Assembly: GCA_964525605.1 (NCBI GenBank)
Contig: CAZGKT010000012.1
Location: forward strand, 7,771-71,770
Source of the DNA: an uncultured bacterium
GTDB taxonomy: Bacteria; Oederibacteriota; Muellerivitia; Muellerivitales; Muellerivitaceae
Direction of reading: 5' to 3'
DNA length: 64,000 bases
The notes beneath the pieces were generated by a model. That model ran no database searches, was not told where the DNA came from, and saw nothing but the letters and a program-made list of their open reading frames with translations. Below, one piece after another: positions 33,901 through 63,822 of the stretch (within the stretch, counting starts at the first letter, position 1; each line of letters starts with the position of its first letter). The position numbers and the translations under genes were made by a program.

Positions 33901-36900
33901 CGGCCTCCCTGCCCCTCTGCCTTCCTTTCGTCCTTCTCTGGCTTTGCGCGCCCTGGTTCGCCCAGGCCATCAGTACCCCCGAACCCAAGCGGGAAAGCCT
34001 ACCCTTGACCGCCGATGAAACCAGTGAACTGCGGCTCCATGCCCGGCGCGTCTGGGCTTTCTTCAGCCACTTCGCCGTGAAGGAGGATCATTTCCTCCCG
34101 CCCGATAATTTCCAGGAAGACCCCCTCCCCGTCGTGGCGCACCGGGGTTCCCCGACCAATTTCGGCCTCTACCTTCTCTCCGTCGTCACCGCCCATGATT
34201 TCGGCTGGATCGGCCTCACCGAAATGACCCGAAAACTGGAAGCGGCCCTGAAAAGCCTCAAAGACATGCAGCGATTCCGGGGCCATTTTTATAACTGGAT
34301 CGACACCCAAACCCTTCTGCCCCTGGAACCCCGTTACATCTCATCGGTGGACAGCGGAAACCTGGCCGGCCATCTCTTGACCCTTTCCCAATCCTGCAGG
34401 GATCTGGCCCACCAGCCGCTCTTTCCCGATTCCATCATTGAGGGAATCCAGGACACGGTGTCCCTCCTTAAAAAATCGGCGCAGGCCCTTCCCCTTCACG
34501 CTTTCTCCTCCGCCACCCCCTTGAGCCAGCTTCAAAAGGAAATCGCCAACTTCGACAGCCAGCTTATTCGGGAGGAACATTCCCGCACCCATTCCGAATG
34601 GGCCTCCTACTGGACCCAGCTTTCCCTCCAGGCCGAAACCCTCAAGGATGCCGCCCATGCCTTCTCCGCCGGCCAGCGCGGGGAGGAAATATTCGAAATG
34701 ACGGCTTGGGCAGACCGCGTCGCCGACGATGTCCAAAGCCATACCCAGGATTTCCAACACTTCTTCCCCTGGGCCCTGGGCCGTTCGGCCCTGGATCATT
34801 CAAACCTTCCTACACTAGAAGCCGATTCTCCGGTGATCCGCGAATTCCAATCATCGCTCGGTAAACTTCTCTCCTCCGGCATGACCCCCGCCGAAGTACC
34901 AGGCCTTTGCGAACAGGCACTCGCTTCCATTGAGGCGAAACGCCAGGTCCGCGACAGCCCTCCCCTTTCCGAGTCCGAGGAACTTTATTTCGACCAGGTG
35001 GGCGCGGCATTAACCCTCGCCGCCCAAAATGGCCGGGAGATTTTGCGAAGGTTGGAGGAGGTAGCTACCGATTCCCGGACGATCTTCAATGAGATGGATT
35101 TCAGCTTTTTGCTGAATCCCCAGAAGAAGCTTTTCTCCATCGGCTATCGGATTGCCGATAGCCGTTCGGCTGACGGCCATTCGACCGATGGACAGTTGGA
35201 AGAGGGCTGTTACGACCTTTTGGCCTCCGAAGCCCGCCTCACCAGCTATGTGGCCATCATCAAAAAAGACGTTCCCGTTTCCCATTGGTTCAGGTTGGGC
35301 CGGGGGCTGGTGGCGGATGAGGGCAAGGCGATGCTGATGAGCTGGGCCGGGTCTATGTTCGAGTACCTCATGCCTTCCCTCGTCATGACCACGCCCGGCG
35401 GAAGCCTTTTGGACCAGACCTGTCGGCGGGTGGTGGAACGGCAGATGGATTACGGGAATTTACGGGGTTCGCCCTGGGGCGTATCGGAAGCGGGATATAA
35501 CGCCCGGGACCTGGACCTGAATTACCAGTATTCCACCTTCGGTGTGCCCGGCCTGGGGTTGAAGCGGGGTTTGGCTAAGGACCTCGTCATCGCGCCCTAT
35601 GCCACGGCTCTCGCCGCCATGTTGGAACCCCGAAAGGCCCTTTTTAATTTCCAGAAATTGGAACAACTGGGCGCCCGGGGCTTGTACGGGTTTTACGAAT
35701 CGCTGGATTACACCCCGACGAGGCTTCGGGAAAACGAGAAATTCGCCCTAGTGAAGTCCTATATGGCCCACCACCAGGGCATGTCGCTCATTGCCTTTTC
35801 CAACGTGGTTAATTCCGGCCTCATGCGCCGCCGCTTCCACATGGACCCCTTGGTCCAGGCGGGCGAGCTTTTGTTGCAAGAAAAGACCCCCAGGAATCTG
35901 GGGGCGGCGCGCGACCAGAAGGAAGAGGTGGAAATCCAGGTCATCCAGGTGCCGATCCCCTCCATCCTTCGCGATATCCGCTCGCTCCACCACGCCGTCC
36001 CTAGTTCCCACCTGCTCTCCAACGGCCGTTACGCCGTCATGATCACGGCCGCCGGATCGGGCTATAGCCGCTGGAAAAACCGCGCCGTCACCCGCTGGCG
36101 GGAAGACGTCACCCGCGACCCCTACGGCAGTTTCCTTTACCTGAGGGATCTCAAGTCGGGTGGGGTCTGGTCGGCGGCCTACCAGCCGGTCTTGACCGAA
36201 CCCCTGCAGTACCACGTGCTGTTTTCGGAAGACCGGGCCAAGATCTCGCGCGTGGACCATGGGATCTCCACCGACCTGGAAATTCTCGTTTCGGCGGAAG
36301 ACGACGCCGAGCTCCGCCGCCTCACCCTCACCAACCCCGGGGGCGTCGAAAGGGAAATCGAGGTCACTTCTTATTCGGAAGTGGTGCTGACCGACCCCGC
36401 CGCCGATTTGGCCCATCCGGCCTTTTCCAACCTCTTCATTGAGACCCGTTTCATCCCGGGTCTCGCCGCCCTCACGGCCAGGCGGCGCCCCCGCTCTTCC
36501 GGCGAGGAACCGGTCTTCATGGCCCAGGTGCTTTCCGTGGGAAGCGAAACCTTCGGGGAAATCGAGTACGAAACCGACCGGGCGAAATTCATCGGCCGGG
36601 GCCGCACACCCCGCACCGCCTCCTCGGTCTTGGACGGCCTGCCCCTTTCCCTTTCCACCGGCGCGGTGCTGGACCCCATCCTGTCTTTAAGGGTCAAGGT
36701 GCGCTTAGCTCCCGGCACCTCCGCCCAGGTTTGTTTCACCACCCTGGTGACGGGCTCCGAAACCGAAATGCTTTCAATGGCCGAAAAATACCATAATTCC
36801 TCCGCCTTCGAGCGTTCCTCCGCCCTCGTCTGGACCCAATCCACCGCCAAGCTTCATCACTTGGGGATCGAACTGGAAGAAGCCCAGCTTTTCCAGAAAC

Positions 36901-39863
36901 TCGCAAACCGAATCCTTTTTTCCGACCCCCTCATGCGCCCCACGAGCGAGATCTTGAAAAAGAACCGCATGAACGTGACGGGCCTCTGGTCCCGCGGCAT
37001 CTCGGGCGACCTGCCCATTCTTTTGGTCCGGGTGGACGACCTGGAAGACCAGGCCCTGATCCGCCAGCTTTTGCGCGCCCACGAATACTGGCGCATGAAA
37101 CGGCTATCGATGGATATCGTGCTGCTGAACGAGAAGGGGCCTTCTTACGTGCAAGATTTACAGACAGCCCTGGAAGGCATGGTGCGGGGCAGTGAAGCGA
37201 CATCCCTCGGCAACCCCGACCTGCCTCCCGGGCGCATTTTCGTCTTGCGCGACGACCTGCTGGACGTGCGGGAAAAGAACCTTTTGCTGGCCGTAGCCCG
37301 GGCCATCCTCAACAGCCGCCAGGGCACCCTCGCCGAGCAGGTGATGCGGGTACGAAAATTCGACAGTTTCAAGTACGTTCCCGCGAAGAAAATGGAAGAG
37401 ACGGAAAAATTCCGCCTCGCGGAAAGGGTCGAGCCCCCGGTTTCGCTTTTTCCCCTGGACTTCTTCAACGGCATCGGCGGCTTCACCCCCGATGGGCGGG
37501 AATACGCCATCGTGCTGGAAAAGGGCCAACGCACCCCCGCCCCCTGGATCAACGTGATCTCCAATGGCGAATTCGGGTTTCAGGTTTCCGAATCGGGCGC
37601 GGGCTACACCTGGGCCTTGAACAGCCGGGAAAACCAGATTTCCCCCTGGTCCAACGACCCCGTGATAGACCCTCCCGGCGAGGCCTTTTATATCCAAGAC
37701 TCGGAGGATCTCTGGTCCCCCACCGCCTCCCCCATCAGGCTGGAAGATGCCACCTATACCGCCCGGCACGGAGCGGGTTACAGCGTTTTTGGCAACGAAT
37801 CCAACGGTATCCGAAGCACCCTCACCCAGTTCGTGGACGCCAAAGAACCGGTCAAGATTTCCCGGTTAGTCCTGCAAAACCGATCCCACCGCTCGAGGGA
37901 GCTTTCCATCACCGGTTACGTGGAATGGGTGCTCGGTTTTAACCGCACCCAAACCTCGCATTCTCTCGTGACCGAAATGGACGCCGAAACCGGCGCGCTT
38001 TTCGCCATGAACCCGCTCAACCCAGTTTACGGAAGCCGGGTTTCATTTTTCGACCTCAAGGGCACCCAGACCGCCTTCACCTCTGACCGGTCCGAATTTA
38101 TCGGAAGAAACGGAACACTGGAACGCCCCGCCGGGCTTTTGCGGAAGGAACCCTTAAGCGGCACCACCGGAGCCGGGTTTGATCCCTGCGGGGTTTTGCA
38201 GGCCCCCCTCACCCTGGCTCCGGGCGAGAAAAAGGAACTGGTGTTTCTTTTAGGGCAGGCCGAAAGCCAGGACCAGGCCCGCCGCTTGGTAAAAACCTTC
38301 AGGCAGAGGGGCGTGGAGGAGAGCCTACAGGCCGTTAACCAATTCTGGGATAACTTTTTGGGCAAGATCCAGGTGCAAACCCCCGACCCCGCGATGGACC
38401 TCATGCTCAACCGCTGGCTTCAAACCCAAACCCTGGCCTGCCGGTTTTGGGCCCGCTCGGCCTTTTACCAGGCCGGAGGCGCCTATGGCTTTAGGGACCA
38501 ACTTCAGGATGTGATGGCCATCGTGACGACCGACCCCACCCTGGCCCGGTCGCATATCCTGGTGGCCGCCGGCCGGCAGTTCCCCGAAGGCGATGTCCAG
38601 CATTGGTGGCACCCCTTGTCCGGGCGGGGGGTGAGGTCCCGCGTTTCGGATGACCGCCTCTGGCTTCCCTATGTGGTGCTCCATTACCTGAAGGTGACGG
38701 AGGATCAGGCCCTGCTGGAAGAACTGGTTCCCTTCCTTCAAGCCCCGCTTCTTCGCCCCGACCAGGAAGATTCCTATTTCGAACCCACGGTTTCCCGCGA
38801 ACCTGCCCTGGACCTTTACGAACATTGCGCGAGAGCGGTCGATATCAGCCTTCAAACCGGTGTCCACGGCCTGCCCCTGATGGGAAGTGGGGATTGGAAT
38901 GACGGCATGAACCGAGTCGGCCATGAGGGAAAGGGTGAAAGTGTTTGGCTGGCCTGGTTTCTCCATGAAATCCTGACAGAAATGGCCCCAGTCGCCCAGT
39001 CGAAGGGCGATGAAAAGCGGGCGAAAACTTGGGCCGAACACGCTGACAAGCTCAAACAGGCCCTGGAAACGAACGCCTGGGACGGGACCTGGTACCGCCG
39101 GGCCTTTTTCGACGACGGTTCCCCCCTGGGGTCCAGGGAAAACACCGAATGCCAGATCGATTCCATCGCCCAGAGCTGGGCGGTATTATCCGGCGCCGCG
39201 GACCCGGCCCGAGCGCTCCAGGCCATGAAATCCGTGGAAGAGCGCCTCATCCTCAAGGACGATGACCTGGTTTTGATCTTCACCCCGCCCTTCGACCAAA
39301 CACCGAAAGACCCCGGCTATATCAAGGGTTATCTGCCCGGCGTGAGAGAAAATGGGGGCCAATACACCCACGCCGCCGTCTGGTGTCTCTTGGCCTACGC
39401 GAAGATGGGAATGGGCAAGCAGGCCTTCGAGTTGTTTTCGATGTTGAACCCTATCAACCACGCCCTGACCCGAACCCATGTGGCGACCTACAAAACCGAA
39501 CCCTATGTGATGGTGGCGGATATTTACGGCAAAGCCCCCCACGTGGGCCGGGGCGGCTGGACCTGGTACACCGGTTCGGCCGGGTGGATGTATAGGGCCG
39601 GAGTCGAATTTATCTTGGGAATACAGCAGAGAGGCAAAAAACTACATTTCGATCCATGCATACCGAAGGAATGGTCTGGATTTAAGGTTACTTATCAGAA
39701 TCTAAGTAGTGTTTATGACATTCAATTCGAAAACCCTAATCATGTTTCCAAAGGGGTTCAACGTATTGAATGTGATGGAGTTGTTGTTCAGACGAAGGAT
39801 GCGGCGATCGACTTGAAGGATGATCGGAAGACCCATTTCGTGAAAGTTATTTTAGGCCCGTAA
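30957..39863 (+). CDS. ndvB: Cyclic beta-1,2-glucan synthase (GT84 glycosyltransferase + GH94 phosphorylase-like domain), 2968 aa
   Basis: Multi-TM N-region. GT84 core with YVITLDADTKL (DxD). NHRWIRGDWQLLPWI. C-terminal GH94 blocks GFRDQLQD, WTWYTGSAGWMYRAG. Overall size and order as NdvB/ChvB/Cgs. Last ~85 codons (from ~39605) are visibly AT-richer than the rest. Confidence 0.9.
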   Translation: MKHGLFLALVHRVKPPQIIRKLANLRRHFPFRFPASFLVSRPTEAPIRSELFSTERFDQHARSLAAAQTLTDDPKAGAQLFPRLRENENILGEAFRYLTGEVQKKKPINPAGEWLLDSYYVVEEQLRDIKRFLPHDFYNELPKLSDGFLKGYPRVYGLAWAYVAHTDSRFDPESLIHFVRSYQQVEPLTIGELWALAITLRVVMVDNLRRIAVYLVTSQEARQDADAFVDELLGLIEESSLSSRPTAAKLQRQSVHPAYLVQLIQRLRYQDPRGTPAVDWLNEKLAFEKTTAEEMVTSVHSLQAANNSTVRNIITSFRNMTTFDWQDFFESVSLVQEILARHPLYSQMDFKTRNSYRTAVEELAKGSGKSELEIAQLALQRAAEGADHQGFSARMGDPGYSLFDEGRRAFEKKIGFQVPLKKRLRRFCTDYPALTYIGNILFMATVILWIAALMNPHLPQAERFLLLFLGLFPAGDLAVGWVNHFVTGMVPPRHLARLEFLAGPTPEFRTFVVVPTLLEKESNIPEQLEKLEVHYLSNADGEVYYALLTDFPDSSVEISPEDEKKLNLAVQLTAELNQRHGPAAGGASRFFLCHRKRLWNPLEGKWMGWERKRGKLHEFNRLLRGAQDTSFLRPDGSVLTVPSGVRYVITLDADTKLSPGVVNHLVGILAHPLNQARLDPVRQKVVEGYGILQPRVTAFLPAQDEKSIFQKLFSGDCCIDPYASAVSDVYQDLFGEGSFTGKGIYDVDAVEQSLKGRISENRLLSHDLFEGCFARCGYASDLEFFEEFPSHAETSTLRNHRWIRGDWQLLPWIFGREGNSLSTLSRWKMADNLRRSLSPIGTVCLLIGAFCLPQVYQPGWVGLALLGIALPSYIPFFKDLVLWRRPLHWRDHLGEITRDFVLGSGQFLVNLVLVAHRAWMHLDAILRTLWRLFVSHRNLLEWVTAAQANSNSALSLSHFLRRMKGSIFIACFAAALTALFNPASLPLCLPFVLLWLCAPWFAQAISTPEPKRESLPLTADETSELRLHARRVWAFFSHFAVKEDHFLPPDNFQEDPLPVVAHRGSPTNFGLYLLSVVTAHDFGWIGLTEMTRKLEAALKSLKDMQRFRGHFYNWIDTQTLLPLEPRYISSVDSGNLAGHLLTLSQSCRDLAHQPLFPDSIIEGIQDTVSLLKKSAQALPLHAFSSATPLSQLQKEIANFDSQLIREEHSRTHSEWASYWTQLSLQAETLKDAAHAFSAGQRGEEIFEMTAWADRVADDVQSHTQDFQHFFPWALGRSALDHSNLPTLEADSPVIREFQSSLGKLLSSGMTPAEVPGLCEQALASIEAKRQVRDSPPLSESEELYFDQVGAALTLAAQNGREILRRLEEVATDSRTIFNEMDFSFLLNPQKKLFSIGYRIADSRSADGHSTDGQLEEGCYDLLASEARLTSYVAIIKKDVPVSHWFRLGRGLVADEGKAMLMSWAGSMFEYLMPSLVMTTPGGSLLDQTCRRVVERQMDYGNLRGSPWGVSEAGYNARDLDLNYQYSTFGVPGLGLKRGLAKDLVIAPYATALAAMLEPRKALFNFQKLEQLGARGLYGFYESLDYTPTRLRENEKFALVKSYMAHHQGMSLIAFSNVVNSGLMRRRFHMDPLVQAGELLLQEKTPRNLGAARDQKEEVEIQVIQVPIPSILRDIRSLHHAVPSSHLLSNGRYAVMITAAGSGYSRWKNRAVTRWREDVTRDPYGSFLYLRDLKSGGVWSAAYQPVLTEPLQYHVLFSEDRAKISRVDHGISTDLEILVSAEDDAELRRLTLTNPGGVEREIEVTSYSEVVLTDPAADLAHPAFSNLFIETRFIPGLAALTARRRPRSSGEEPVFMAQVLSVGSETFGEIEYETDRAKFIGRGRTPRTASSVLDGLPLSLSTGAVLDPILSLRVKVRLAPGTSAQVCFTTLVTGSETEMLSMAEKYHNSSAFERSSALVWTQSTAKLHHLGIELEEAQLFQKLANRILFSDPLMRPTSEILKKNRMNVTGLWSRGISGDLPILLVRVDDLEDQALIRQLLRAHEYWRMKRLSMDIVLLNEKGPSYVQDLQTALEGMVRGSEATSLGNPDLPPGRIFVLRDDLLDVREKNLLLAVARAILNSRQGTLAEQVMRVRKFDSFKYVPAKKMEETEKFRLAERVEPPVSLFPLDFFNGIGGFTPDGREYAIVLEKGQRTPAPWINVISNGEFGFQVSESGAGYTWALNSRENQISPWSNDPVIDPPGEAFYIQDSEDLWSPTASPIRLEDATYTARHGAGYSVFGNESNGIRSTLTQFVDAKEPVKISRLVLQNRSHRSRELSITGYVEWVLGFNRTQTSHSLVTEMDAETGALFAMNPLNPVYGSRVSFFDLKGTQTAFTSDRSEFIGRNGTLERPAGLLRKEPLSGTTGAGFDPCGVLQAPLTLAPGEKKELVFLLGQAESQDQARRLVKTFRQRGVEESLQAVNQFWDNFLGKIQVQTPDPAMDLMLNRWLQTQTLACRFWARSAFYQAGGAYGFRDQLQDVMAIVTTDPTLARSHILVAAGRQFPEGDVQHWWHPLSGRGVRSRVSDDRLWLPYVVLHYLKVTEDQALLEELVPFLQAPLLRPDQEDSYFEPTVSREPALDLYEHCARAVDISLQTGVHGLPLMGSGDWNDGMNRVGHEGKGESVWLAWFLHEILTEMAPVAQSKGDEKRAKTWAEHADKLKQALETNAWDGTWYRRAFFDDGSPLGSRENTECQIDSIAQSWAVLSGAADPARALQAMKSVEERLILKDDDLVLIFTPPFDQTPKDPGYIKGYLPGVRENGGQYTHAAVWCLLAYAKMGMGKQAFELFSMLNPINHALTRTHVATYKTEPYVMVADIYGKAPHVGRGGWTWYTGSAGWMYRAGVEFILGIQQRGKKLHFDPCIPKEWSGFKVTYQNLSSVYDIQFENPNHVSKGVQRIECDGVVVQTKDAAIDLKDDRKTHFVKVILGP

Positions 39864-41716: not shown

Positions 41717-41984
41717 GGGAGTAGGGTTGATACCCGATGACCAACAGGTTCGACTAAATCGAACATAGGTCGATGTCAGCCAGTTTTATCGTTGAACTTG
41801 GGCAGATTTCCCCTTGAAAAATGAATTTATATAACCGCATGGGTAAACCTGTCGTAGTGTCCGGGGAACCGAGGCATGACCTGGAGCCCGGCCTCTTTTT
41901 GAAACCAGTGGTATTATTACAGTAATTCCCAATTACGCCGTTAGGTGAATGGGTTCGATCCTATATATGACTGGAGAATATGAC

Positions 41985-43304
41985 ATGAAAAAATCTTTCA
42001 GCTTCTTGGGCCTGGCTTTAGGAGCCCTAACCCTATCCCTGGTCTGCGGATGCAGTAACCACCTGACCACCGCAACCGTCACCAACCCATCCATTGCTCC
42101 CGTCAACATCGCCCCCAACGCCACACTTTATACGGCCGAAGAAGCGACGAACCAGACAGGGGCATCCCTCTATGGTTCCTGCGAAAGCCTCACTAGTTCG
42201 GGCAATATCTTCTTCTCTCCCTTCAGTATCACGACCTGCTTGGCCATGGCTCAGGAAGGCGCGGTCGGCAACACCCAGATTCAGATGCAAAATTTCTTGG
42301 GGCTCAACCCCACGACCTCAACCCGGCTCTCGAGTATGCAAACCCTGATCAATCAGATTAATGCCCCCGGCAAGTCCTACACCCTCGACACAGCCAATAA
42401 TATGTGGCTTCAGGTTGGTTTTCCCTTCCTTCCGGCTTATCTCAACACGGTTCAAACCTACTATGACGCGGGCGTCACGAACGTGGATTTCGTCAACCAG
42501 CCCGCCCAGGCCTTGCAGACGATCAACGGCGCGGTCTCGCAGGAAACCGACGGGTACATCCCGACCCTGTTTTCCGGCCTTCCCCCCAAAACCAAACTGG
42601 TTCTGACCAACGCCATTTATTTTAAGGGCGACTGGCAATTCCAGTTCCCCGTGTCGAATACGGCTCCCCAGACCTTCAATCTCACGACTACCACTTCCGA
42701 ACCGGTCAGCATGATGCACATGACCTTCAACGCCAACCTTGGCACCTTCAACGGGGCGGCCACCGTTTTGTCCATCCCCTACAGCAATTACCAGGCTTCG
42801 ATGTACGTTTTCCTGCCGCCACTCGGCAGCATGGCGGCCCTGGAAAGCCAAATGACCGGAGCTAACATCAACACCTGGCTGACGGCTAACGCTTCGACGA
42901 TGAACTCAACCACCGCCTATGGCCAGGTAATGCTGACCCTGCCCAGGTTCAGCTTCAAAACCAATTACGACCTGACCAGCGCTTTGACTGCCGACATGCC
43001 CCTGGCCTTTACCATCCCCGGGCCCACCACGCTGATAGGGGCCGATTTCTGGAATATCGACGGAACGAACAACTTGTACATCACCGAGGTGGTCCATCAA
43101 GCCTATGTGGACGTTTCGGAAACGGGCACGACCGCCGCCGCCGCGACCGGGGTCGCTTTGGGGTGCCCCAATTGCATGGTCGTATCGATGCCGATGATCA
43201 ATTCCTTCACCGCGGACCATCCCTTCATTTTCATGATCGTGGACAACGCCTCCAATACGGTGTTGTTCATGGGCCGAGTGAACGATCCGCTTTCCAGTAA
43301 TTAA
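41985..43304 (+). CDS. Serpin (serine protease inhibitor) lipoprotein
   Basis: Lipobox LSLVCGC. Serpin N-block NIFFSPFSITTCLAM. Hinge ETGTTAAAATG. C-terminal FTADHPFIFMIVDNASNTVLFMGRVNDP. GGAG RBS 10 nt upstream of ATG 41985. Confidence 0.85.
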   Translation: MKKSFSFLGLALGALTLSLVCGCSNHLTTATVTNPSIAPVNIAPNATLYTAEEATNQTGASLYGSCESLTSSGNIFFSPFSITTCLAMAQEGAVGNTQIQMQNFLGLNPTTSTRLSSMQTLINQINAPGKSYTLDTANNMWLQVGFPFLPAYLNTVQTYYDAGVTNVDFVNQPAQALQTINGAVSQETDGYIPTLFSGLPPKTKLVLTNAIYFKGDWQFQFPVSNTAPQTFNLTTTTSEPVSMMHMTFNANLGTFNGAATVLSIPYSNYQASMYVFLPPLGSMAALESQMTGANINTWLTANASTMNSTTAYGQVMLTLPRFSFKTNYDLTSALTADMPLAFTIPGPTTLIGADFWNIDGTNNLYITEVVHQAYVDVSETGTTAAAATGVALGCPNCMVVSMPMINSFTADHPFIFMIVDNASNTVLFMGRVNDPLSSN

Positions 43305-44064: not shown

Positions 44065-44601
44065 ATGCCGAAAAAAATTATCTGTTCCAAATGCGGGGCT
44101 GTACTGCCCCCCTTCGCCACGACGGAAAACCCTAAACGCATCTATAAAATATGTGCCGAGTGCGAGGCCGATTTAACCCGTCAAATCAAGGGTCCGGCAG
44201 TGGAAAAATACCTCGATACGCTGGGTACCCCGGCCCTCGTAGTCAACCGGGATCTGCGCGTGATCGCCTTCAATCAAAATTGTTTACGAGATTTATGCGG
44301 CAATGAACCCAAACCCACCGGCCTGCTCGCCGGGGAATTTTTGGAATGCCATAACGCTTCCCTGCCCGAACGATGCGGGGCCACCCCGGCTTGCCTGGAC
44401 TGCGCCATCCGCCGTACCGCGATCGACACCCTGAGGACGAAGGAATCCCAAAAATACGTCCCCGCCCTCATCCCCGGGAAGGACGGAAACCGAATGGTCC
44501 GAAGGGAATTTTTAATTTCCACGGATAAACTGGGAGACATGGTTCAGATCACCATCGAAAAATTGGTTACTGTTCTGTTGCCCCCCGCCTCGGAAAACTG
44601 A
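44065..44601 (+). CDS. Cys-rich small protein: N-terminal zinc-ribbon (CxxC...CxxC) + PAS-like region with second Cys cluster
   Basis: CSKCG...CAEC, then NRDLRVIAFNQNCLRDL (PAS-like), then ECHNASLPERCGATPACLDC. AGGAG 9 nt upstream. Confidence 0.55.
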   Translation: MPKKIICSKCGAVLPPFATTENPKRIYKICAECEADLTRQIKGPAVEKYLDTLGTPALVVNRDLRVIAFNQNCLRDLCGNEPKPTGLLAGEFLECHNASLPERCGATPACLDCAIRRTAIDTLRTKESQKYVPALIPGKDGNRMVRREFLISTDKLGDMVQITIEKLVTVLLPPASEN

Positions 44602-44655: not shown

Positions 44656-47600
44656 CTATTTGCGCTTATGGCCCTTTGGCTTTCGGACCTTATGGGTATG
44701 GACCTTGGGTTTCTTGCCCTGGTGAGGCGGGCGGTCGGATTTCTCCCAGGCGGTGACCACATCCTCGATGCGGACGGTCCGGGCCCATTGTTGAGCCCCT
44801 TCCAATTGCTCGCTCGGGAATCGGCTCCGTAAATCCCGCGCAAAAGTATCCGCTTGATCCTTTGTTTGCCGGTGACAGATGGGTTGGGTCAGGGCGAGCG
44901 TGATGAAACTCAAGGCTTGGCCTTCCTCCCCCTCGGCCTTCAAGAGTCGGGAGATCCCTACCGCCAGGTCGATCAATTGGGGCTTGAGCTTGGCTTCCGT
45001 CGCCATCCGTGCCGCCCTTTTGAAATATTTTTTAGTTTCCGGGTAGGCTTCCAACCGGCACGCGATATCCCCCAAATGGATGCAAGTGGCCGACATCCCC
45101 AGCACATCCCCCGTTTCCTCGAAGAAACCCAGGCTTTTCAGGAAAAAATTTTCGGCTTCCTTCCATCGCTTTGCGAAACCCGATAGGGCACCCAGGTGGT
45201 AAAAATGCCAAGCCTCGCTGGTGGGATTCGATCCCTCCTTCGTCAACAAGTCATGGGACTGCTGGAAAAGGCCCGCCGCTTCCTGATCTTTTCCCTGGGC
45301 GAACCTCAAATTGCCTAAAAGGTCCATGGACCAGGCGATCCCCCGGGAGTCGCCGATATCCTGGTAAATTTTCAATCCATCCTGAAAAAACTGATCGGCC
45401 TCCTCGTACTCCCCCAGGGACCAGCTGACGTATCCCAAGTGATCGCTCGTTGCCGCGACCGCCCGGCGGTCCCCCAGGTCCTGCGAAATGGATTTACTCT
45501 CCAGGTACATTTGGCGGGCGCCGGCGTAATCCCCTACCAAAACGGCCACCCGTCCCAGGTTTCTCATGGCCCAGGCGGTTCCCCGGCGGTCGCCGCTCCG
45601 GGAATAGGCCTCTAAGCTCTTCATGTGATAAGCCCGGGCCTCCGCGAATTGACCCAGGTCGAACAGCGCCTCTCCGGTCAGGATATAGGAGTAGGCCATC
45701 TCCCGCTCGTCCCTGTCCTTTTCGGAATAGACGAGGCTTTTGCGGATAAAGGTAAGGCCCTTCCGCAGATTTCCCATCAAGAGGGTGATGTGGCCCAGGT
45801 GGTTGAGGGTGAGGGTGATGCCGGACCGCTGGCCGTTACGGTAATAAACCTTGAAGCTTTTTTCGTAATAATCCTTGGCCTTTTTAAACTCACCCTGGGT
45901 CTCAGCCACCAGGCCCAAACCGGCCAGGGCGAAACCCGATTGTTTCAGCGCGGAGGCGCCCTGGAACAGTTCCAGGCTTTTCTCAAACAGTTTTCGGGCC
46001 ACCTGGACACGGCCCAAATCGATTTCAAAATCACCCCGGCGGGAAAGCAGCTTGCCCAAAAGAACCGCCTTGGAATCGGTCATGTCGCCGGGGTCCTGGT
46101 ATCTTTCCTGGAGAATGTCCGCAGCCCGCTGAAAGGCCTCCTGGCCTTCCTGGAGCCACCCTTTCGTCTCGTAGAGGGTGAACAGGCTGTCCAGGTAATC
46201 CCCCATGACTTTTTCCTGCCCCCCATCGACCGCCCGGACCCACCCTTCCCGGATGTTTTCCATTTCCTGGAGAAGCCCCTCGAAAACGATCCGCTGGTTG
46301 GGCCCATACAAGTCCCGCTCCCTTTTCTTCAGCAGGTTTCCGAAATAGGCACTATGGTCGGCCATGGCCTGGGTCTTCCGGGCCGGATCGTCGAATAGTT
46401 TTTCCTTGGCGAAATGCTTCAGGAGCTCGTGGATCTCGTAGCGGCCGTCGGGCCGAAGACGAACCAAGGACTTCCCTTCGAGCGCGTTCAGGATGGGCTC
46501 GGTGGCCCCGGCCACGGCGCGAGCGGCCAAGCGGGTAAACCCACCCCGGAAGGTTGAAATGGCCATCAGGGATTTTTTCTGGGTTTCGGAAAGGAGGATC
46601 CAGGAATACTCGAACACCGCCCTCAAACTGCGGTGCCGGGGCGGTAGGTGGGGCATGGCGGTCGCCAAGAAATCTCGGCTACTCTCGATTTTATCCGCGA
46701 TCGGGGCGAGGCCCAGCGAAGAAACCCACGTCGCCGAAAGTTCCAGCCCCAGGGGCATTCCCTCCAAAAGCCGGCAGACGCGAATCAGGGACGGTCCCTC
46801 CTCCGCCTCCAAAGCAAAATCCGGACGCACCCGCCGGGCGCTTTTGAGGAACAATTGGACGGCGGCAAAGGCTTCCAGGGGGCCCTCCTGTCCCTCCTCG
46901 GGGTAGCGGAGACCCCGGACCTCGAATATTTTTTCGATTCCGATACCCAATTTTTCGCGGGACGTCACGATAATTTTCACGCCGGGCGCGGCCCTCAGGA
47001 GGTCTTGGATCAGATCCGCCCCCTCGACGAGGTGCTCGAAGTTGTCCAAAACGATCAAGCATTCTTTCGGCTTCAAATGGTTCAACAGCTGGGTTTTCGG
47101 ATCTTCCGGGCCGAAAAAGAAAAATTTCATGGCGGTGGCGATGGTACTGACGATCAACTGGTCCGATAGAAGCGGCGCCAGGGCCACCCAATAGACCCCA
47201 TCCTTGAACCGTTCCACCAACTCCGCCGCGGTCTGAAAAGCCAGCCGGGTCTTCCCGAAACCGCCCGGCCCCGCCAGGGTCACCTGCCGGACGGGGGAAC
47301 GGGCGAGCATTTCAGTCAATTCGCCGATTTCCTCCCGCCTTCCAAAAAAGGGAGAGATCTGAGGAAAAAAATTCTGGGTATAGTTCTTCAACGATCGAAG
47401 GGGCGGAAATTCCCCATGGGGTAAATCCGGATGCTGGAGGGAAAAGACATTTTCGGGTTCGCTCAGGTCTTTAAGGAAATGGGTTCCCAGATCCTGGAGC
47501 CGGGCGTCGGGAGGCAGAGGGATAAAATGTACCGCGGGAACCGTCAGGAGGATCTGGCCCCCCCAGGCCGTTTCCAGTAGTTTGAGGGCGTGGTTAAAGT

Positions 47601-47949
47601 CCGGGCCCACATAGGTCTGGGCGTACTGGTCGGCCTCTCCCGAATGCAGAACGACGCGGACCTTCCCCTGGCCGAAGGCGTCCCAGGACCGGGCGGGAAA
47701 TTGTTTTTGAATGTCCAGGGCGGCTTGAGCGGCCTCCCCGGGCTCTAAAATGGATAAAACCCCGGCGAGAGTGCGCTGCATCCAATGGGCGCCGTGAGCT
47801 TGGAGCAATTCTTCCAAAAAGAAAAACTGCCCGCCCAAAACATGGTCCGCTTCGGGCGTGCCCCGGCCCTGGAAAACAGCCGGATGGTCGATTTCAATAA
47901 AAAGGAAAATCAATGCGTCGTCGCCTTTGCGTGGCCAATGGCAAAGCAC
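44656..47949 (-). CDS. STAND signalling ATPase: N-terminal class-III cyclase-homology domain (degenerate) + NB-ARC + TPR array
   Basis: VLHSGEA...GPDFNHALKLLETAWGGQILLT (cyclase fold). Walker A GPGGFGKTRLA. Walker B CLIVLDNFEH. More than 10 TPRs in C-terminal 500 aa. Basic tail KKPKVHTHKVRKPKGHKRK. GTG start. Confidence 0.85.
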   Translation of the reverse strand: MLCHWPRKGDDALIFLFIEIDHPAVFQGRGTPEADHVLGGQFFFLEELLQAHGAHWMQRTLAGVLSILEPGEAAQAALDIQKQFPARSWDAFGQGKVRVVLHSGEADQYAQTYVGPDFNHALKLLETAWGGQILLTVPAVHFIPLPPDARLQDLGTHFLKDLSEPENVFSLQHPDLPHGEFPPLRSLKNYTQNFFPQISPFFGRREEIGELTEMLARSPVRQVTLAGPGGFGKTRLAFQTAAELVERFKDGVYWVALAPLLSDQLIVSTIATAMKFFFFGPEDPKTQLLNHLKPKECLIVLDNFEHLVEGADLIQDLLRAAPGVKIIVTSREKLGIGIEKIFEVRGLRYPEEGQEGPLEAFAAVQLFLKSARRVRPDFALEAEEGPSLIRVCRLLEGMPLGLELSATWVSSLGLAPIADKIESSRDFLATAMPHLPPRHRSLRAVFEYSWILLSETQKKSLMAISTFRGGFTRLAARAVAGATEPILNALEGKSLVRLRPDGRYEIHELLKHFAKEKLFDDPARKTQAMADHSAYFGNLLKKRERDLYGPNQRIVFEGLLQEMENIREGWVRAVDGGQEKVMGDYLDSLFTLYETKGWLQEGQEAFQRAADILQERYQDPGDMTDSKAVLLGKLLSRRGDFEIDLGRVQVARKLFEKSLELFQGASALKQSGFALAGLGLVAETQGEFKKAKDYYEKSFKVYYRNGQRSGITLTLNHLGHITLLMGNLRKGLTFIRKSLVYSEKDRDEREMAYSYILTGEALFDLGQFAEARAYHMKSLEAYSRSGDRRGTAWAMRNLGRVAVLVGDYAGARQMYLESKSISQDLGDRRAVAATSDHLGYVSWSLGEYEEADQFFQDGLKIYQDIGDSRGIAWSMDLLGNLRFAQGKDQEAAGLFQQSHDLLTKEGSNPTSEAWHFYHLGALSGFAKRWKEAENFFLKSLGFFEETGDVLGMSATCIHLGDIACRLEAYPETKKYFKRAARMATEAKLKPQLIDLAVGISRLLKAEGEEGQALSFITLALTQPICHRQTKDQADTFARDLRSRFPSEQLEGAQQWARTVRIEDVVTAWEKSDRPPHQGKKPKVHTHKVRKPKGHKRK

Positions 47950-52761: not shown

Positions 52762-53910
52762 ATGAACCGCGAAATCGAAACCCCCAAACAAACTCCGTTG
52801 AGTCTTGATTCCCTCGAATGGGTGATTCCCCTTGAGGAAATTCTCCAAGAAATACCCTATTACGGCATTTATATTTGCGACCTCTCCGGAAAGGCGATTT
52901 TTTGGAATCAGGGCGCTGAAATGCTGACCGGTTATAAGCCCCCGGAGATCATTGGTCGGTCCTCCATTAGCGAACTTCTCCAATTCACCGACACGAAAGG
53001 CAAGGCCCTCCACGGAAAAAGCGACCTGATGCATAAATGCCTGAAGCAGGGGGTGAAACATCAGCAAAAAATCCAGCTGAAAACCAAGCCCGGCCATCCC
53101 TTGTCGGCCCTCATCCACTTCCTTCCCATAAAGGACCGCCATGGAGAGATTCCCTCCGGCATCGTCTTCTTCCACGACATCAGCAAGGACGAAGACACGA
53201 TATTGACCCAAAAGATAGTGAACAGCTCCCTCAAGCAGTATGTTTCCAACGCCACCTACCGCGAGGCCCTGATCAAGGCCGTCTCCAACAAGAAGACCGA
53301 ACCGGAAGTCATTGACCGTACCATCCTCTTCATGGACATGGTCGGATTCACCACCTACGCGGAAAAAACCACACCCACCCAGGTCATCCGGACCCTCAAC
53401 GACCTCCTGAGTCTGGCGGGAGAAGCGGTTCGGGAATGTAAGGGCGACATCGATAAGTTTATCGGCGATTCCCTCGTTGCCGTTTTCAAGGACCCCAACA
53501 AAGCGGTTCAGGCGGCCCTGCAAATCCGGTTGGGCCTTTTTGAACTAAATGACCATCGGGAAGAGAAGGGCAAAATGCCCATTGAGGTTCGAATGGGGAT
53601 CAACACCGGCCGGTTGATCCGGGGCGAAATCGGCTCCCTCCACCGCAAGGAGCTCACGGTCATCGGGGACGTGGTCAATACGGCCTCCCGGGTCCAAACC
53701 AAGGCAAACCGCGGGGAAATCCTGATCACCCAAGCCACTTACGATCTTCTCGAAAACCAAAGGGATTGCTTCCCCGTGGGAAAAGTGGCCCTCAAGGGAA
53801 AAAGGCAATTGGTCACCATGTATCGGATTGGCGGATTGGCGAAGGTGGATCTGCCCTGGATTCCCAAATTCTTAAATGTGCTGTTGAACCGCGACGAAAA
53901 AGAGGCTTAA
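52762..53910 (+). CDS. PAS-domain class-III adenylate/guanylate cyclase
   Basis: PAS (IYICDLSGKAIFWNQGAEMLTGY). Cyclase blocks ILFMDMVGFT, KFIGDSLVAVF, RMGINTGRLIRGEIG, TVIGDVVNTASRVQ; both metal Asp present. Confidence 0.85.
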   Translation: MNREIETPKQTPLSLDSLEWVIPLEEILQEIPYYGIYICDLSGKAIFWNQGAEMLTGYKPPEIIGRSSISELLQFTDTKGKALHGKSDLMHKCLKQGVKHQQKIQLKTKPGHPLSALIHFLPIKDRHGEIPSGIVFFHDISKDEDTILTQKIVNSSLKQYVSNATYREALIKAVSNKKTEPEVIDRTILFMDMVGFTTYAEKTTPTQVIRTLNDLLSLAGEAVRECKGDIDKFIGDSLVAVFKDPNKAVQAALQIRLGLFELNDHREEKGKMPIEVRMGINTGRLIRGEIGSLHRKELTVIGDVVNTASRVQTKANRGEILITQATYDLLENQRDCFPVGKVALKGKRQLVTMYRIGGLAKVDLPWIPKFLNVLLNRDEKEA

Positions 53911-62781: not shown

Positions 62782-63822
62782 TTAAGCCAATCCAGCCTGA
62801 ATCTTCTTTCCCAAGACCACATAGGGGATGTGCAGTCCGGTTTTGCCCTTGATCGTGACGGCAGGCAGTTCCTCCAGGCGAAAGTCGTCGGCGGCCGAAT
62901 GGGCCATGTCCCGGTTGATGAGGATTTGGCCGTCTTTCGCCAGGGCGCAAAGGCGGGCGGCGAAATTGACCGTGTCCCCGATGACCGTGAATTCCATGCG
63001 CCGGGCCGAGCCCAGGTTTCCCATGATGACGTTGCCCGCCGCCAGCCCGATCCCCAGGCCCGTTTCAACATCCTTACTGTAGTTGCCCTTGAAGGCGCCC
63101 AAAATCTGGTGGAATCCATCCTGCATTTGCAGGGCCGAAAGCAGGGCCTTTTGGATCGACTCGGCTTCCTTATCCGGGGGAAAGGGGTAAAAAGCGAGGA
63201 TGGAGTCACCCATGAACTTGTTAATCTCCCCGCCTGAGAAGGTGATGATTTCTTCCAACTCGGTGAACATCCGGTTGAGGTAGCGCACTGTTTCCTGGGG
63301 CCTGAGCTTCTCGGTCATGGCGGTAAAACCCCGCACATCCGAAACCAAAACGATACAGCTGGTCACTTCCCCTTCCCATACGGCCTTGTTGCCCTTGGCC
63401 GTGGCGAATTGGGAAGCCCGGGTGCCCACGAATTTGTCCAGAATATGCAGGCTCTCGACCAGTTTTTTCTCGGTCCCGCTGAAATGAGCGTAGGCCAGGT
63501 CCATAATTTCTTTTTTCGTGGCCCCGATGGCCAAGGGGGTGGACTTGCGGACGATCTTGTAATCTTGGGGCAATACCCGGCACCGAAGAAGGAAGGACTG
63601 GAGTTCAACGAGGAGGGCTTCTTGGGCCCTCCACCAGAAGGCCCGGGCGACCAAGACCAACAGCGCGGCCGAGGCGACCCCGCAGGCAAAGGCAGCCTCC
63701 AAGGATTGGGTGTAAAACCAACTGACGGCCCCGATGATGATCACAGTGCCGAGAACCCAGATCGCGGGCAGGGCCTTGCCCGGTTGGTCTTCTTCTTTTT
63801 TAACCTCGGGTCCGTTCGCCAT
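62782..63822 (-). CDS. Membrane-anchored class-III adenylate/guanylate cyclase
   Basis: Two N-terminal TM helices (AIWVLGTVIIIGAVSWFY; AFACGVASAALLVLVARAFWW). Cyclase blocks CIVLVSDVRGFT, KFMGDSILAFY, GIGLAAGNVIMGNLG, FTVIGDTVNFAARL. Confidence 0.85.
   Translation of the reverse strand: MANGPEVKKEEDQPGKALPAIWVLGTVIIIGAVSWFYTQSLEAAFACGVASAALLVLVARAFWWRAQEALLVELQSFLLRCRVLPQDYKIVRKSTPLAIGATKKEIMDLAYAHFSGTEKKLVESLHILDKFVGTRASQFATAKGNKAVWEGEVTSCIVLVSDVRGFTAMTEKLRPQETVRYLNRMFTELEEIITFSGGEINKFMGDSILAFYPFPPDKEAESIQKALLSALQMQDGFHQILGAFKGNYSKDVETGLGIGLAAGNVIMGNLGSARRMEFTVIGDTVNFAARLCALAKDGQILINRDMAHSAADDFRLEELPAVTIKGKTGLHIPYVVLGKKIQAGLA

What the first reader, a model, noticed from the sequence alone, without database searches (positions are those of the whole stretch)
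44656..47949. STAND ATPase whose N-terminal cyclase-homology domain appears to have lost both metal-binding aspartates
Seen in sequence:
- N-terminal ~190 aa follow the class-III cyclase fold: ...VLHSGEA...GPDFNHALKLLETAWGGQILLT, with Asn and a basic residue at the transition-state positions.
- The first metal Asp of the FxDIxG block reads Glu: LFIEID.
- The position of the second, T-I-G-D, reads T-L-A-G.
- After that come NB-ARC (GPGGFGKTRLA; CLIVLDNFEH), more than 10 TPRs and a Lys/His-rich basic tail.

Established: class-III cyclases need both Asp for Mg/Mn binding, and catalytically dead cyclase-homology domains act as regulatory modules. AC-ATPase-TPR proteins are known, e.g. in mycobacteria, but with active cyclases and LuxR HTH outputs.

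Inference: a pseudo-cyclase sensor. It may be an Avs-like NTPase in which the N-terminal effector slot is filled by a nucleotide-binding, not nucleotide-forming, domain. It is convergent with a Cys-rich Zn-ribbon-PAS protein.
Basis: partly seen in the sequence, partly recalled or inferred. Interest (0 to 1): 0.5.

Follow-up and report, generated by a model that had tools for sequence, protein, structure and literature searches.

The report
Dead-cyclase STAND ATPase with basic tail
This gene encodes a large molecular-switch protein whose N-terminal cyclic-nucleotide-making domain has lost its catalytic residues yet is strongly conserved, in a small protein family found almost only in the uncultured phylum FCPU426 that also gained a lysine-rich tail; it is a modest new variant of a known protein family, not a new kind of system.

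Summary
The minus-strand ORF encodes a 1085-aa protein, most likely starting at TTG 47913 rather than GTG 47949. It has a class-III cyclase-fold domain, a STAND NTPase, 11 TPR-like hairpins and a disordered polybasic tail.

Pfam PF00211 does not detect the N-domain. Homologues, a family profile (Ma1120 cyclase, E=3e-40) and an AlphaFold model (Foldseek top hits all class-III cyclases) show it is a cyclase homology domain.

- Metal Asp 1 is Glu7.
- Metal Asp 2 is Ala50 (TGDG reads TLAG).
- The substrate Lys is Gln46.
- The transition-state Arg is Lys111.

This is not a one-off. About 37 proteins share the degenerate site and the basic tail, and all genome matches labelled to phylum except one weak partial hit are candidate division FCPU426. 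They form one clade on a tree built from the NTPase region alone. In 70 canonical relatives, five of the six catalytic positions are 100% conserved and the transition-state Asn 94%. The dead domain is under strong purifying selection (dN/dS 0.11).

The "pseudo-cyclase" reading is supported. "Nucleotide-binding sensor" is unproven, because phosphate-loop residues are also lost. "Avs-like defence" is not supported: no Avs HMM hit, one copy found per MAG and no recognisable defence genes nearby. Verdict: a new variant of the known cyclase-STAND-TPR family, of moderate interest.

The parts
44656..47913 (-). Whole gene: 1085-aa pseudo-cyclase / STAND NTPase / TPR / polybasic-tail protein. Probable TTG start at 47913; stop codon 44656-44658. 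The mechanical ORF extends to GTG 47949.
   Evidence: Orthologues start at the aligned position. Logan's call of the near-identical protein is 1085 aa. NCBI and ENA calls (P0052, P0053) start at internal Met45 and lack beta1/alpha1, although the DNA of the 80% orthologue still encodes them.
47419..47913 (-). Degenerate class-III cyclase homology domain (residues 1-165).
   Evidence: There is no PF00211 hit. Homologues carry PF00211. The family profile matches Ma1120 at E=3e-40. The AF2 model has pLDDT 84, and its Foldseek top 50 are all class-III cyclases, led by Ma1120 with prob 1.0 and TM about 0.8. dN/dS is 0.11.
47881..47895 (-). Remodelled metal-A/phosphate loop E7-I-D9-H-P11. The canonical motif is D-I-E-G-S.
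   Evidence: In the clade Glu is 88% conserved, Asp9 94% and Pro11 94%. Canonical relatives have Asp, Glu and Ser at 100%.
47761..47781 (-). M45-QRTLAG-51: the former K-x-T-G-D-G hairpin. Substrate Lys->Gln46, Gly->Leu49 (Pro in most of the clade), second metal Asp->Ala50 (variable in the clade).
47581..47616 (-). T100-YVGPDFNHAL-K111: the former D-x(6)-N-x(3)-R helix. Base-specifying Asp->Thr100, Asn107 kept here but variable in the clade, Arg->His108 (conserved), transition-state Arg->Lys111 (conserved).
47329..47418 (-). Conserved linker FPPLRSL...PFFGRxEE joining the cyclase-like domain to the NTPase. It is shared with canonical cyclase-STAND relatives.
46879..47328 (-). STAND P-loop NTPase core (residues 196-345): Walker A G215-T222, Walker B L286-H294, sensor-1 TSR 317-319.
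   Evidence: NB-ARC scores 27.2 bits against a 23.5 cut-off. These motif residues are invariant across 23 pseudo and canonical relatives.
46324..46878 (-). Helical ARC / winged-helix region of the NOD (residues 346-530). It is the most conserved part of the protein.
44887..46323 (-). Arm helices (residues 531-566) plus 11 TPR-like helix hairpins (residues 567-1009): the presumed sensor.
   Evidence: TPR_12 E=2.4e-45 and TPR_MalT E=5.8e-13. The best solved full-length match is PH0952, a STAND with a TPR sensor.
44740..44886 (-). C-terminal helical cap (residues 1010-1058), motif HPxCRxxTKD. It is also present in canonical relatives.
44659..44739 (-). Disordered polybasic Lys/Arg/His tail (residues 1059-1085).
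   Evidence: pLDDT is below 50 for residues 1061-1085. A tail of this composition is present in every complete pseudo-clade C-terminus and absent from the canonical relatives listed. It is the most basic C-terminus among 75 window ORFs.

Best explanation
The gene encodes a MalT/PH0952-type STAND (NOD) switch protein. It descends from the cyclase-STAND-TPR family, the architecture of mycobacterial Rv0386 and of full-length mammalian soluble adenylyl cyclase.

Shown:
- The N-terminal domain keeps the class-III cyclase fold.
- One ancestral event removed the two-metal site and most substrate and transition-state residues, making the domain a pseudoenzyme.
- The same clade gained a disordered polybasic C-terminal tail.
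- The NTPase motifs and TPR array are intact.
- The dead domain is under the strongest purifying selection in the protein.

Inferred, by analogy with MalT/PH0952:
- An unknown ligand or protein bound by the TPR sensor relieves autoinhibition.
- ADP is exchanged for ATP and the protein multimerises.
- In canonical relatives this would pair cyclase domains and switch on cNMP synthesis. Here the paired pseudo-cyclase domains cannot make cNMP and act as a non-catalytic interaction or assembly surface.
- The polybasic tail supplies a new tether or output, by binding a polyanion such as nucleic acid or acidic membrane.

The nature of the input signal and of the output target is unknown.
For: - Fold and homology: the N-domain's relatives carry PF00211. 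The family profile hits Ma1120 cyclase at E=3e-40. The AF2 model (pLDDT 84) matches only class-III cyclases among its top Foldseek hits.
- Catalytic loss: the window has E7, Q46, L49-A50, T100 and K111. Among 70 canonical relatives the D, K-side G-D, D and R positions are 100% conserved and the Asn 94%. In the pseudo clade the second Asp, base Asp, Asn, loop Thr and two further Arg are variable. Six other positions switched to a new conserved residue: D->E, E->D, S->P, H->R47, R->H108, R->K111.
- Both half-sites are degenerate, the Asp-donor side and the Lys/Asp/Asn/Arg-donor side. It follows from the known mechanism that a heterodimer with an active cyclase would also gain no complete site from this domain.
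- Single origin: all 37 degenerate-plus-tail proteins are monophyletic on a neighbour-joining tree built from NOD columns only.
- Functional retention: dN/dS of the domain is 0.11, against 0.16-0.22 for the NOD and TPR. Column conservation is 0.67, against 0.59 for the TPRs.
- Intact switch: Walker A, Walker B and sensor-1 residues are invariant across 23 relatives, and NB-ARC is above its cut-off.
- Architecture class: the best solved full-length match is 6MFV, PH0952, a STAND with a TPR sensor. The mechanism of that class is described in PMC6468293.
- Tail: it is compositionally conserved in the whole clade and absent in canonical relatives, and disordered.
Against: - No biochemical data exist for any member.
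- Glu7 and Asp9 leave two acidic residues near the former metal site. Arg86 and Lys148 are also retained (equivalents of the phosphate-contacting Arg and Lys of canonical cyclases, by my reading of the alignment). Some metal or nucleotide binding, or a non-canonical reaction, cannot be excluded.
- The set of switched-and-conserved residues could mark a new ligand or catalytic site rather than a passive scaffold.
- Nothing here identifies the TPR ligand, the partner of the pseudo-cyclase domain or the target of the tail.
- The neighbour-joining tree has no bootstrap support.
Confidence: 0.6

Rival explanations
1. The pseudo-cyclase domain works as a dominant-negative or regulatory partner. On activation it heterodimerises with true class-III cyclases of the same cell and modulates their output. 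This is a specific version of the non-catalytic reading.
For: - Class-III cyclases act as dimers with shared sites (established knowledge).
- The window encodes two cyclases with complete catalytic sets within 20 kb: PAS-cyclase 52762-53910 and 62782-63822.
- Kaur et al. 2020 proposed nucleotide binding or dominant-negative roles for inactive cNMP cyclase domains in other bacterial systems (PMC7159879).
Against: - The neighbouring cyclases are not conserved neighbours in other genomes.
- They belong to other cyclase subfamilies: 48 and 32 bits against the family HMM, versus 225 bits for the gene itself.
- There is no interaction evidence.
Confidence: 0.15
2. The domain is still an enzyme. The conserved E7-x-D9-H10-P11, R47, H108 and K111 residues form a new active site for a non-canonical reaction or an unusual metal geometry.
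For: - Six former active-site-region positions switched to a different residue that is conserved at 88-100% rather than decaying.
- The domain has the lowest dN/dS in the protein.
- Two acidic residues persist in the beta1 loop.
Against: - The second metal ligand position is freely variable (A, T, R, K, S, L, H, D, W), as are the base-specifying and Asn positions.
- A conserved Pro replaces the phosphate-loop Ser.
- To my knowledge no class-III cyclase is active without the Asp pair.
Confidence: 0.12
3. It is an Avs-like antiphage STAND. The TPRs recognise a phage protein and the N-terminal domain is the effector.
For: - The overall layout (N-terminal module, STAND NTPase, C-terminal TPR) resembles Avs proteins.
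- Inactive cyclase domains occur in some bacterial conflict systems (PMC7159879).
Against: - There is no Avs or other defence NTPase HMM hit; PADLOC gives only TPR models.
- No Avs structure appears among the top 50 fold matches, and the best is MalT-type PH0952.
- The targeted scan found one match per matching MAG, with all but one phylum-labelled match in FCPU426, the clade is monophyletic on the NOD tree, and the TPRs are under purifying selection (dN/dS 0.22). This is unlike patchy, fast-evolving defence genes.
- The neighbours found are GH94, serpin, alginate lyase, GH44 and membrane proteins, with no recognisable defence genes among them.
- A dead cyclase has no obvious toxic output.
Confidence: 0.06
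4. The N-domain is a decaying relic, or the gene is a pseudogene, and the substitutions carry no functional meaning.
For: - Pfam no longer recognises the domain.
- NCBI and ENA gene calls even omit its first 44 residues.
Against: - The 1085-codon ORF is intact and matches orthologue lengths of 1082-1095 aa.
- Domain dN/dS is 0.11.
- Domain conservation is equal to that of the NTPase.
- The omitted N-terminus is conserved at protein level in the 80% orthologue.
Confidence: 0.02

Closest known systems
Canonical class-III cyclase / STAND NTPase / TPR proteins (for example P0092-P0171 here, from Acetothermia, WOR-3, Fraserbacteria and Chloroflexi MAGs). This is the architecture of M. tuberculosis Rv0386/Rv2488c and of full-length mammalian soluble adenylyl cyclase ADCY10.
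   Same: - Same domain order, and the same conserved linker FPPLRSL...GRxxE.
- Same NOD motifs, TPR array and C-terminal HPxC..TKD cap.
- 33-41% full-length identity.
- The Rv0386 cyclase-ATPase-TPR architecture is described in bioRxiv 10.1101/2024.03.06.583649.
- The predicted STAND/P-loop region of full-length sAC is described in PMC12802110.
   Different: - The canonical relatives keep all six catalytic residues at 94-100%; this clade does not.
- There is no LuxR/GerE HTH, unlike Rv0386.
- A polybasic disordered tail is added.
- Proteins are about 100 aa longer.
MalT / PH0952-type STAND ATPases with a TPR (SUPR) sensor (PDB 6MFV; PMC6468293).
   Same: - 6MFV is the best solved structural match of the full-length model, covering NOD, arm and TPR.
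- There is a TPR_MalT Pfam hit.
- This class supplies the working model: inducer-released autoinhibition, then ATP-dependent multimerisation.
   Different: - MalT has a C-terminal LuxR-type DNA-binding effector, and PH0952 has no cyclase-like domain.
- Sequence similarity of the NOD is too low for phmmer.
Ma1120 (M. avium) and other soluble class-III adenylyl cyclases.
   Same: These are the closest solved structures of the N-domain: profile E=3e-40 and Foldseek prob 1.0, TM about 0.8.
   Different: Ma1120 has both metal Asp and is an active enzyme. The window domain has Glu and Ala at those positions.
Catalytically inactive cNMP-cyclase domains noted in vWA-MoxR conflict systems (Kaur et al. 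2020, PMC7159879). By analogy, from my own knowledge: degenerate GGDEF domains and the degenerate half-site of heterodimeric cyclases.
   Same: A cyclase-fold domain kept without catalytic residues, for which a binding or dominant-negative role has been proposed.
   Different: - The architecture differs (vWA fusion versus STAND-TPR), and the context is not a conflict system.
- Here both half-sites are degenerate, so the 'one dead site, one live site' heterodimer logic does not apply directly.

Membership tests
Class-III nucleotidyl cyclase (catalytically competent; PF00211) | Cyclase homology domain fold and homology | tested here: met
   The family profile matches Ma1120 at E=3e-40. The top 50 Foldseek matches of the AF2 model are all class-III cyclases. 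Homologues carry PF00211.
Class-III nucleotidyl cyclase (catalytically competent; PF00211) | Scores above the Pfam PF00211 gathering threshold | tested here: not met
   There is no PF00211 hit, even at E<=10 on the isolated domain. None of the roughly 40 clade members has a precomputed PF00211 hit.
Class-III nucleotidyl cyclase (catalytically competent; PF00211) | Two metal-binding aspartates (beta1 and the beta2-beta3 hairpin) | tested here: not met
   The window has Glu7 and Ala50. In the clade the first position is Glu (88%) and the second is variable. Canonical relatives have Asp at both positions at 100%.
Class-III nucleotidyl cyclase (catalytically competent; PF00211) | Transition-state Asn and Arg | tested here: not met
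   Asn107 is present in the window but only 37% conserved in the clade. The Arg is replaced by Lys111 (89% conserved).
Class-III nucleotidyl cyclase (catalytically competent; PF00211) | Substrate-specifying Lys plus Asp/Thr (or Glu plus Cys for GTP) | tested here: inconclusive
   The window has Gln46 and Thr100. In the clade the first position is Lys, Gln or Arg and the second is variable. Thr is acceptable in some active cyclases, by my own knowledge of CyaC.
Class-III nucleotidyl cyclase (catalytically competent; PF00211) | cNMP synthesis in vitro | not testable with these tools
   Needs a cyclase assay of purified protein.
STAND NTPases (NB-ARC / MalT-type NOD) | Walker A, Walker B and sensor-1 motifs | tested here: met
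   GPGGFGKT 215-222, LIVLDNFEH 286-294 and TSR 317-319 are present, and these residues are invariant in 23 relatives. NB-ARC scores 27.2 bits against a 23.5 cut-off.
STAND NTPases (NB-ARC / MalT-type NOD) | Helical and winged-helix domains after the P-loop core, then a repeat sensor | tested here: met
   The model shows helical and winged-helix elements at 346-530, followed by 11 TPR-like hairpins. The best solved match is the STAND-TPR protein PH0952.
STAND NTPases (NB-ARC / MalT-type NOD) | Ligand-triggered, ATP-dependent multimerisation | not testable with these tools
   Needs SEC-MALS or cryo-EM with and without ATP analogue.
Cyclase-STAND-TPR family (Rv0386 / sAC-like) | N-terminal CHD, conserved linker, NOD and TPR in one polypeptide; NOD related to that of canonical members | tested here: met
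   Full-length relatives with PF00211 are 33-41% identical. They share the linker and cap motifs. The NOD tree places the clade beside them.
Cyclase-STAND-TPR family (Rv0386 / sAC-like) | Catalytically competent CHD as output | tested here: not met
   See the Asp, Asn and Arg rows above.
Cyclase-STAND-TPR family (Rv0386 / sAC-like) | C-terminal LuxR-type HTH (mycobacterial members only) | tested here: not met
   No HTH family appears in the Pfam or NCBIfam scans. The C-terminus is a disordered basic tail.
Avs (antiviral STAND) defence proteins | Match to Avs or other defence NTPase models | tested here: not met
   PADLOC gives only three generic TPR models. No Avs structure is in the top 50 fold matches.
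Avs (antiviral STAND) defence proteins | Patchy distribution and defence-island context | tested here: not met
   The targeted scan found one match per matching MAG, nearly all FCPU426. The neighbours found are carbohydrate-active or membrane genes. Neighbour proteins were not themselves scanned against PADLOC.
Avs (antiviral STAND) defence proteins | Toxic N-terminal effector and recognition of phage proteins | not testable with these tools
   The N-domain is a dead cyclase with no recognisable toxic activity. Recognition needs experiments.

The most novel reading that the evidence does not exclude
The cyclase fold has been repurposed rather than merely silenced. The residues that switched and then froze (E7, D9, H10, P11, R47, H108, K111) would form a new ligand-binding or catalytic pocket. 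Together with the newly acquired polybasic tail, this would turn a cNMP-producing STAND into one that reads a small molecule or acts directly on a polyanion such as DNA, RNA, polyphosphate or acidic membrane. That would be a STAND output type not described so far.
Probability: 0.15. Interest if true: 0.6.

Novelty: new variant of a known kind. Interest (0 to 1): 0.4.

Why it matters
Cyclase-STAND-TPR proteins are widespread, from mycobacteria to mammalian soluble adenylyl cyclase, yet what the STAND/TPR part does is still unclear. The 2025 study of full-length sAC found no regulator specific to the STAND-containing isoform (PMC12802110).

This clade keeps the whole switch under strong selection while discarding catalysis and adding a basic tail. 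It is a natural separation-of-function variant. It argues that the cyclase fold in these proteins has a role beyond making cNMP, such as assembly or partner binding. It also offers a tractable construct for studying STAND-driven pairing of cyclase domains without enzymatic read-through.

The result flags an annotation problem as well. Pfam misses the domain, and NCBI/ENA gene calls truncate it. The biological impact is limited for now, because the clade is small, the organisms are uncultured and the output is unknown.

Tried and rejected
- Direct Pfam scans of the protein and of the isolated N-domain gave no PF00211 hit. Homology had to be shown through relatives and a family profile.
- A single-sequence scan of genome contigs found nothing. 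The alignment-based scan worked.
- An exact look-up of the NCBI version of the protein (P0052) found no contig.
- Synteny: no neighbour of the window gene is conserved elsewhere. A cluster of 2-3 multipass membrane paralogues, often with GH44, lies divergently upstream in most other FCPU426 loci, but it is absent from the window and from its closest orthologue. I therefore did not use it for function. These membrane proteins have no Pfam match.
- PADLOC gave only TPR hits.
- phmmer of the NOD region against PDB gave nothing. The full-length profile search was dominated by TPR proteins. The fold search gave PH0952.
- Rfam and tRNA scans of the window were empty. Promoter and terminator scans were at or below shuffle expectation.
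- Model coordinates are not exposed, so I could not test whether the newly conserved residues cluster in 3D.
- Shenoy et al. 2004 (PMC2447327) is held only as abstract and references.
- A genome-wide habit of basic C-termini was considered and rejected as an explanation of the tail. It is the most basic of 75 window ORFs.

Full report
**1. The gene**

- The minus-strand ORF 44656..47949 is intact at 1097 codons from GTG.
- Relatives begin with M-I/V-F-L-F at the residue aligned to Leu13 of that ORF.
- Logan's call for the near-identical protein is 1085 aa.
- A TTG at 47913 lies 10 nt after AAAGG. I therefore take 47913 as the start and number residues from it.
- NCBI and ENA gene calls for this protein and its 80% orthologue (P0052, P0053) start at internal Met45. 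That cuts off strand beta1 and helix alpha1 of the N-domain. The orthologue's DNA still encodes ALIFLFTEIDHPAVFQGRGNPKADQVL upstream of the called start.

**2. Is the N-domain a cyclase homology domain?**

- Pfam does not see it, in the whole protein or in the isolated 207 residues at E<=10.
- The best PDB sequence match is nevertheless the class-III adenylyl cyclase Ma1120, end to end, at E=0.15.
- A homologue search with the N-domain returned 51 proteins, most of which carry PF00211.
- A profile of their alignment hits Ma1120 at E=3e-40, followed by other class-III cyclases.
- An AlphaFold2 model of residues 1-200 has pLDDT 84 and pTM 0.79, with the expected beta-alpha-beta-beta-alpha-beta topology. 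Its top 50 Foldseek matches in the PDB are all class-III cyclases, led by Ma1120 (prob 1.0, TM about 0.8 on the target).
- Homology and fold are therefore established.

**3. The catalytic residues**

I took the 120 best full-length relatives and aligned them to an HMM of the domain. I then compared 70 canonical proteins with 36 proteins of the window's clade.

| Position | Canonical relatives (n=70) | Window | Window's clade (n=36) |
|---|---|---|---|
| Metal Asp 1 (in D-I-E-G-S-T) | Asp 100% | Glu7 | Glu 88% |
| +2 residue of that motif | Glu 100% | Asp9 | Asp 94% |
| Phosphate-loop Ser | Ser 100% | Pro11 | Pro 94% |
| Phosphate-loop Thr | Thr 100% | Ala12 | variable |
| Substrate Lys | Lys (nearly all) | Gln46 | Lys, Gln or Arg |
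| Position before the hairpin Thr | His 99% | Arg47 | Arg 100% |
| Hairpin Gly (of T-G-D-G) | Gly (nearly all) | Leu49 | mostly Pro |
| Metal Asp 2 | Asp 100% | Ala50 | variable |
| Base-specifying Asp | Asp 100% | Thr100 | variable |
| Transition-state Asn | Asn 94% | Asn107 | Asn 37% |
| Residue after that Asn | Arg 97% | His108 | His 100% |
| Transition-state Arg | Arg 100% | Lys111 | Lys 89% |

- Two further Arg that are 94% conserved in canonical proteins are variable in the clade.
- Both halves of the shared active site are degenerate: the Asp-donor half and the Lys/Asp/Asn/Arg-donor half. It follows from the dimeric mechanism of class-III cyclases that neither a homodimer nor a heterodimer with an active partner would gain a complete site from this domain.
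The one correction is the second motif: in this subfamily it is T-G-D-G, so T-L-A-G puts Ala, not Gly, at the Asp position.

**4. A clade, not an accident**

- About 40 clusters (P0052-P0091; 40-100% identity; 1075-1147 aa when complete) lack a precomputed PF00211 hit. From 38% identity downward most relatives have it and are about 100 aa shorter.
- A profile search of 1.84 billion representatives found only about six representatives of the degenerate type. A clear score gap (333-198 bits) separates them from canonical proteins (193 bits or less).
- A scan of 185,579 species genomes with clade-specific peptide patterns found 18 matches at 41-64% identity, one per MAG. Ten are labelled candidate division FCPU426 and the rest only 'bacterium' or 'proteobacterium'. 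They include MAGs from palsa, from groundwater and from the MFD-labelled series. A 19th, weak partial match (36% identity over 92 residues) lies in an Actinomycetota MAG.
- On a neighbour-joining tree built only from NOD and winged-helix columns, which is independent of the cyclase domain, all 37 degenerate proteins form one clade that excludes all 78 canonical ones. The tree has no bootstrap support.
- Catalysis was therefore lost once and the gene was then kept through deep divergence.
- Independent degenerate cyclase domains without the tail also exist among canonical-type proteins (P0138, P0255, P0266).

**5. Selection**

| Region | dN/dS, window vs 80% orthologue | Mean frequency of commonest residue, 29 clade members |
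|---|---|---|
| Cyclase-like domain | 0.11 | 0.67 |
| NOD core | 0.16 | 0.70 |
| ARC / winged helix | 0.17 | 0.74 |
| Arm + TPR (dN/dS); TPR only (conservation) | 0.22 | 0.59 |
| Tail | 0.24 | 0.44 |

The dead domain is functional, not a relic.

**6. A second clade-defining feature**

- Every complete C-terminus in the clade ends in a 25-40-residue tail with 10-23 Lys/Arg/His in the last 40 residues. This includes the basal-looking P0185 and P0300.
- The 20 canonical relatives listed (P0092-P0111) end right after the shared helical cap, with 2-12.
- In the full-length model (pLDDT 88) residues 1061-1085 are disordered.
- The tail is conserved in composition only. It is the most basic C-terminus of 75 window ORFs of 150 aa or more, so it is not a genome-wide habit.

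**7. The rest of the protein**

- Walker A (GPGGFGKT), Walker B (LIVLDNFEH) and sensor-1 (TSR) are present. These residues are invariant across 23 degenerate and canonical relatives.
- NB-ARC passes its Pfam cut-off.
- The model shows a helical and winged-helix region, arm helices and 11 TPR-like hairpins at residues 567-1009.
- The best solved match of the whole model is 6MFV, the PH0952 'STAND with a TPR sensor'. No Avs structure is in the top 50.
- For that class, inducer binding to the sensor relieves autoinhibition, the NOD exchanges ADP for ATP, and the protein multimerises into a hub that activates its target (PMC6468293).

**8. Context**

- Neighbours in the window are a 2968-aa GH94 protein, a methyltransferase-like ORF, a serpin, an alginate-lyase/TPR protein and a PAS-cyclase.
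- None is a conserved neighbour in other genomes.
- In most other FCPU426 loci the gene lies divergent from 2-3 tandem multipass membrane paralogues, often followed by a GH44 gene. This cluster is absent from the window and from its closest orthologue, so I treat it only as a lead.
- No recognisable defence genes were found nearby. PADLOC recognises only the TPRs of the gene itself; the neighbours were not scanned with it.
- The window has two other cyclase genes with complete catalytic sets.
- No Rfam family or tRNA lies in the window.

**9. What it most likely is**

- It is a MalT/PH0952-type STAND switch derived from the cyclase-STAND-TPR family. Its output domain became a pseudoenzyme, and it acquired a polyanion-binding-type tail.
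- Shown: the fold, the loss of catalytic residues, the single origin, purifying selection, the intact NTPase motifs, and the presence and disorder of the tail.
- Inferred: ligand-triggered, ATP-dependent multimerisation that pairs the pseudo-cyclase domains as a non-catalytic interaction surface, with the tail providing a tether or output.
- Rivals, in order: regulation of true cyclases by heterodimerisation; a repurposed pocket with new binding or catalytic activity; antiphage Avs-like function; a decaying relic, which is essentially excluded.

**10. Comparison and novelty**

- The cyclase-ATPase-TPR architecture is known in mycobacteria, with active cyclases and LuxR HTH outputs.
- Full-length mammalian sAC is predicted to carry a STAND/P-loop region after its cyclase domains.
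- Inactive cNMP cyclase domains have been noted in vWA-MoxR conflict systems, with 'binds nucleotide or dominant negative' offered as explanations (PMC7159879).
- My literature searches found no description of a conserved dead-cyclase clade within the STAND-TPR family, nor of its coupling to a polybasic tail.
- I rate it a new variant of a known kind, of moderate interest.

Noticed in passing
window 47782-47913 (-); L001 9833-10000: Public gene calls for this protein and its 80% orthologue (P0052 and P0053, from NCBI and ENA) start at internal Met45. They omit the first 44 residues (beta1/alpha1) of the cyclase-like domain, although that stretch is conserved at protein level. Together with the missing Pfam hit, this hides the domain in annotations.
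   Followed up: yes
window 52762-53910 (+) and 62782-63822 (-): Two further class-III cyclase genes have complete catalytic sets. One is a PAS-cyclase with FMDMVGFT / KFIGD / TVIGDVVNTASR. The other is a membrane-anchored one with VSDVRGFT / KFMGD / TVIGDTVNFAAR. This makes three cyclase-fold genes in 64 kb.
   Followed up: partly
L002 3883-9940 and the equivalent positions in L003-L020: In most other FCPU426 loci (a family spanning 17 locus ids, two of them the same contig) the orthologue lies divergent from 2-3 tandem paralogues of a roughly 430-510-aa multipass membrane protein. This protein has no Pfam match and carries an N-terminal DE..QTYLIGLK motif. In 12 loci a GH44 glycoside hydrolase follows. 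The cluster is absent from the window and from L001.
   Followed up: partly
window 30957-39863 (+): A 2968-aa protein with GH94 supersandwich and catalytic domains and a glucoamylase-like domain. It resembles cyclic beta-1,2-glucan synthase-type giants.
   Followed up: no
window 41949-43304 (+): A full-length bacterial serpin (PF00079, E=3.7e-98).
   Followed up: no
window 44065-44601 (+): The convergent 178-aa ORF has two N-terminal CxxC pairs. It gives only sub-threshold hits to a TFIIB-type Zn ribbon and to the MmyB-like (PAS-like) ligand-binding domain. It is not conserved next to orthologues.
   Followed up: partly
proteins P0057, P0066, P0070-P0075 (relatives, not in the window): Some clade members carry a 20-50-residue Pro/Gly/Ser-rich insertion in the cyclase-like domain, after the beta2-beta3 hairpin. 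This splits the HMM match in two.
   Followed up: no
proteins P0138, P0255, P0266 (relatives, not in the window): Independent losses of one or both metal Asp occur in otherwise canonical-type cyclase-STAND-TPR proteins that lack the polybasic tail. Degeneration of this domain has therefore happened more than once.
   Followed up: partly
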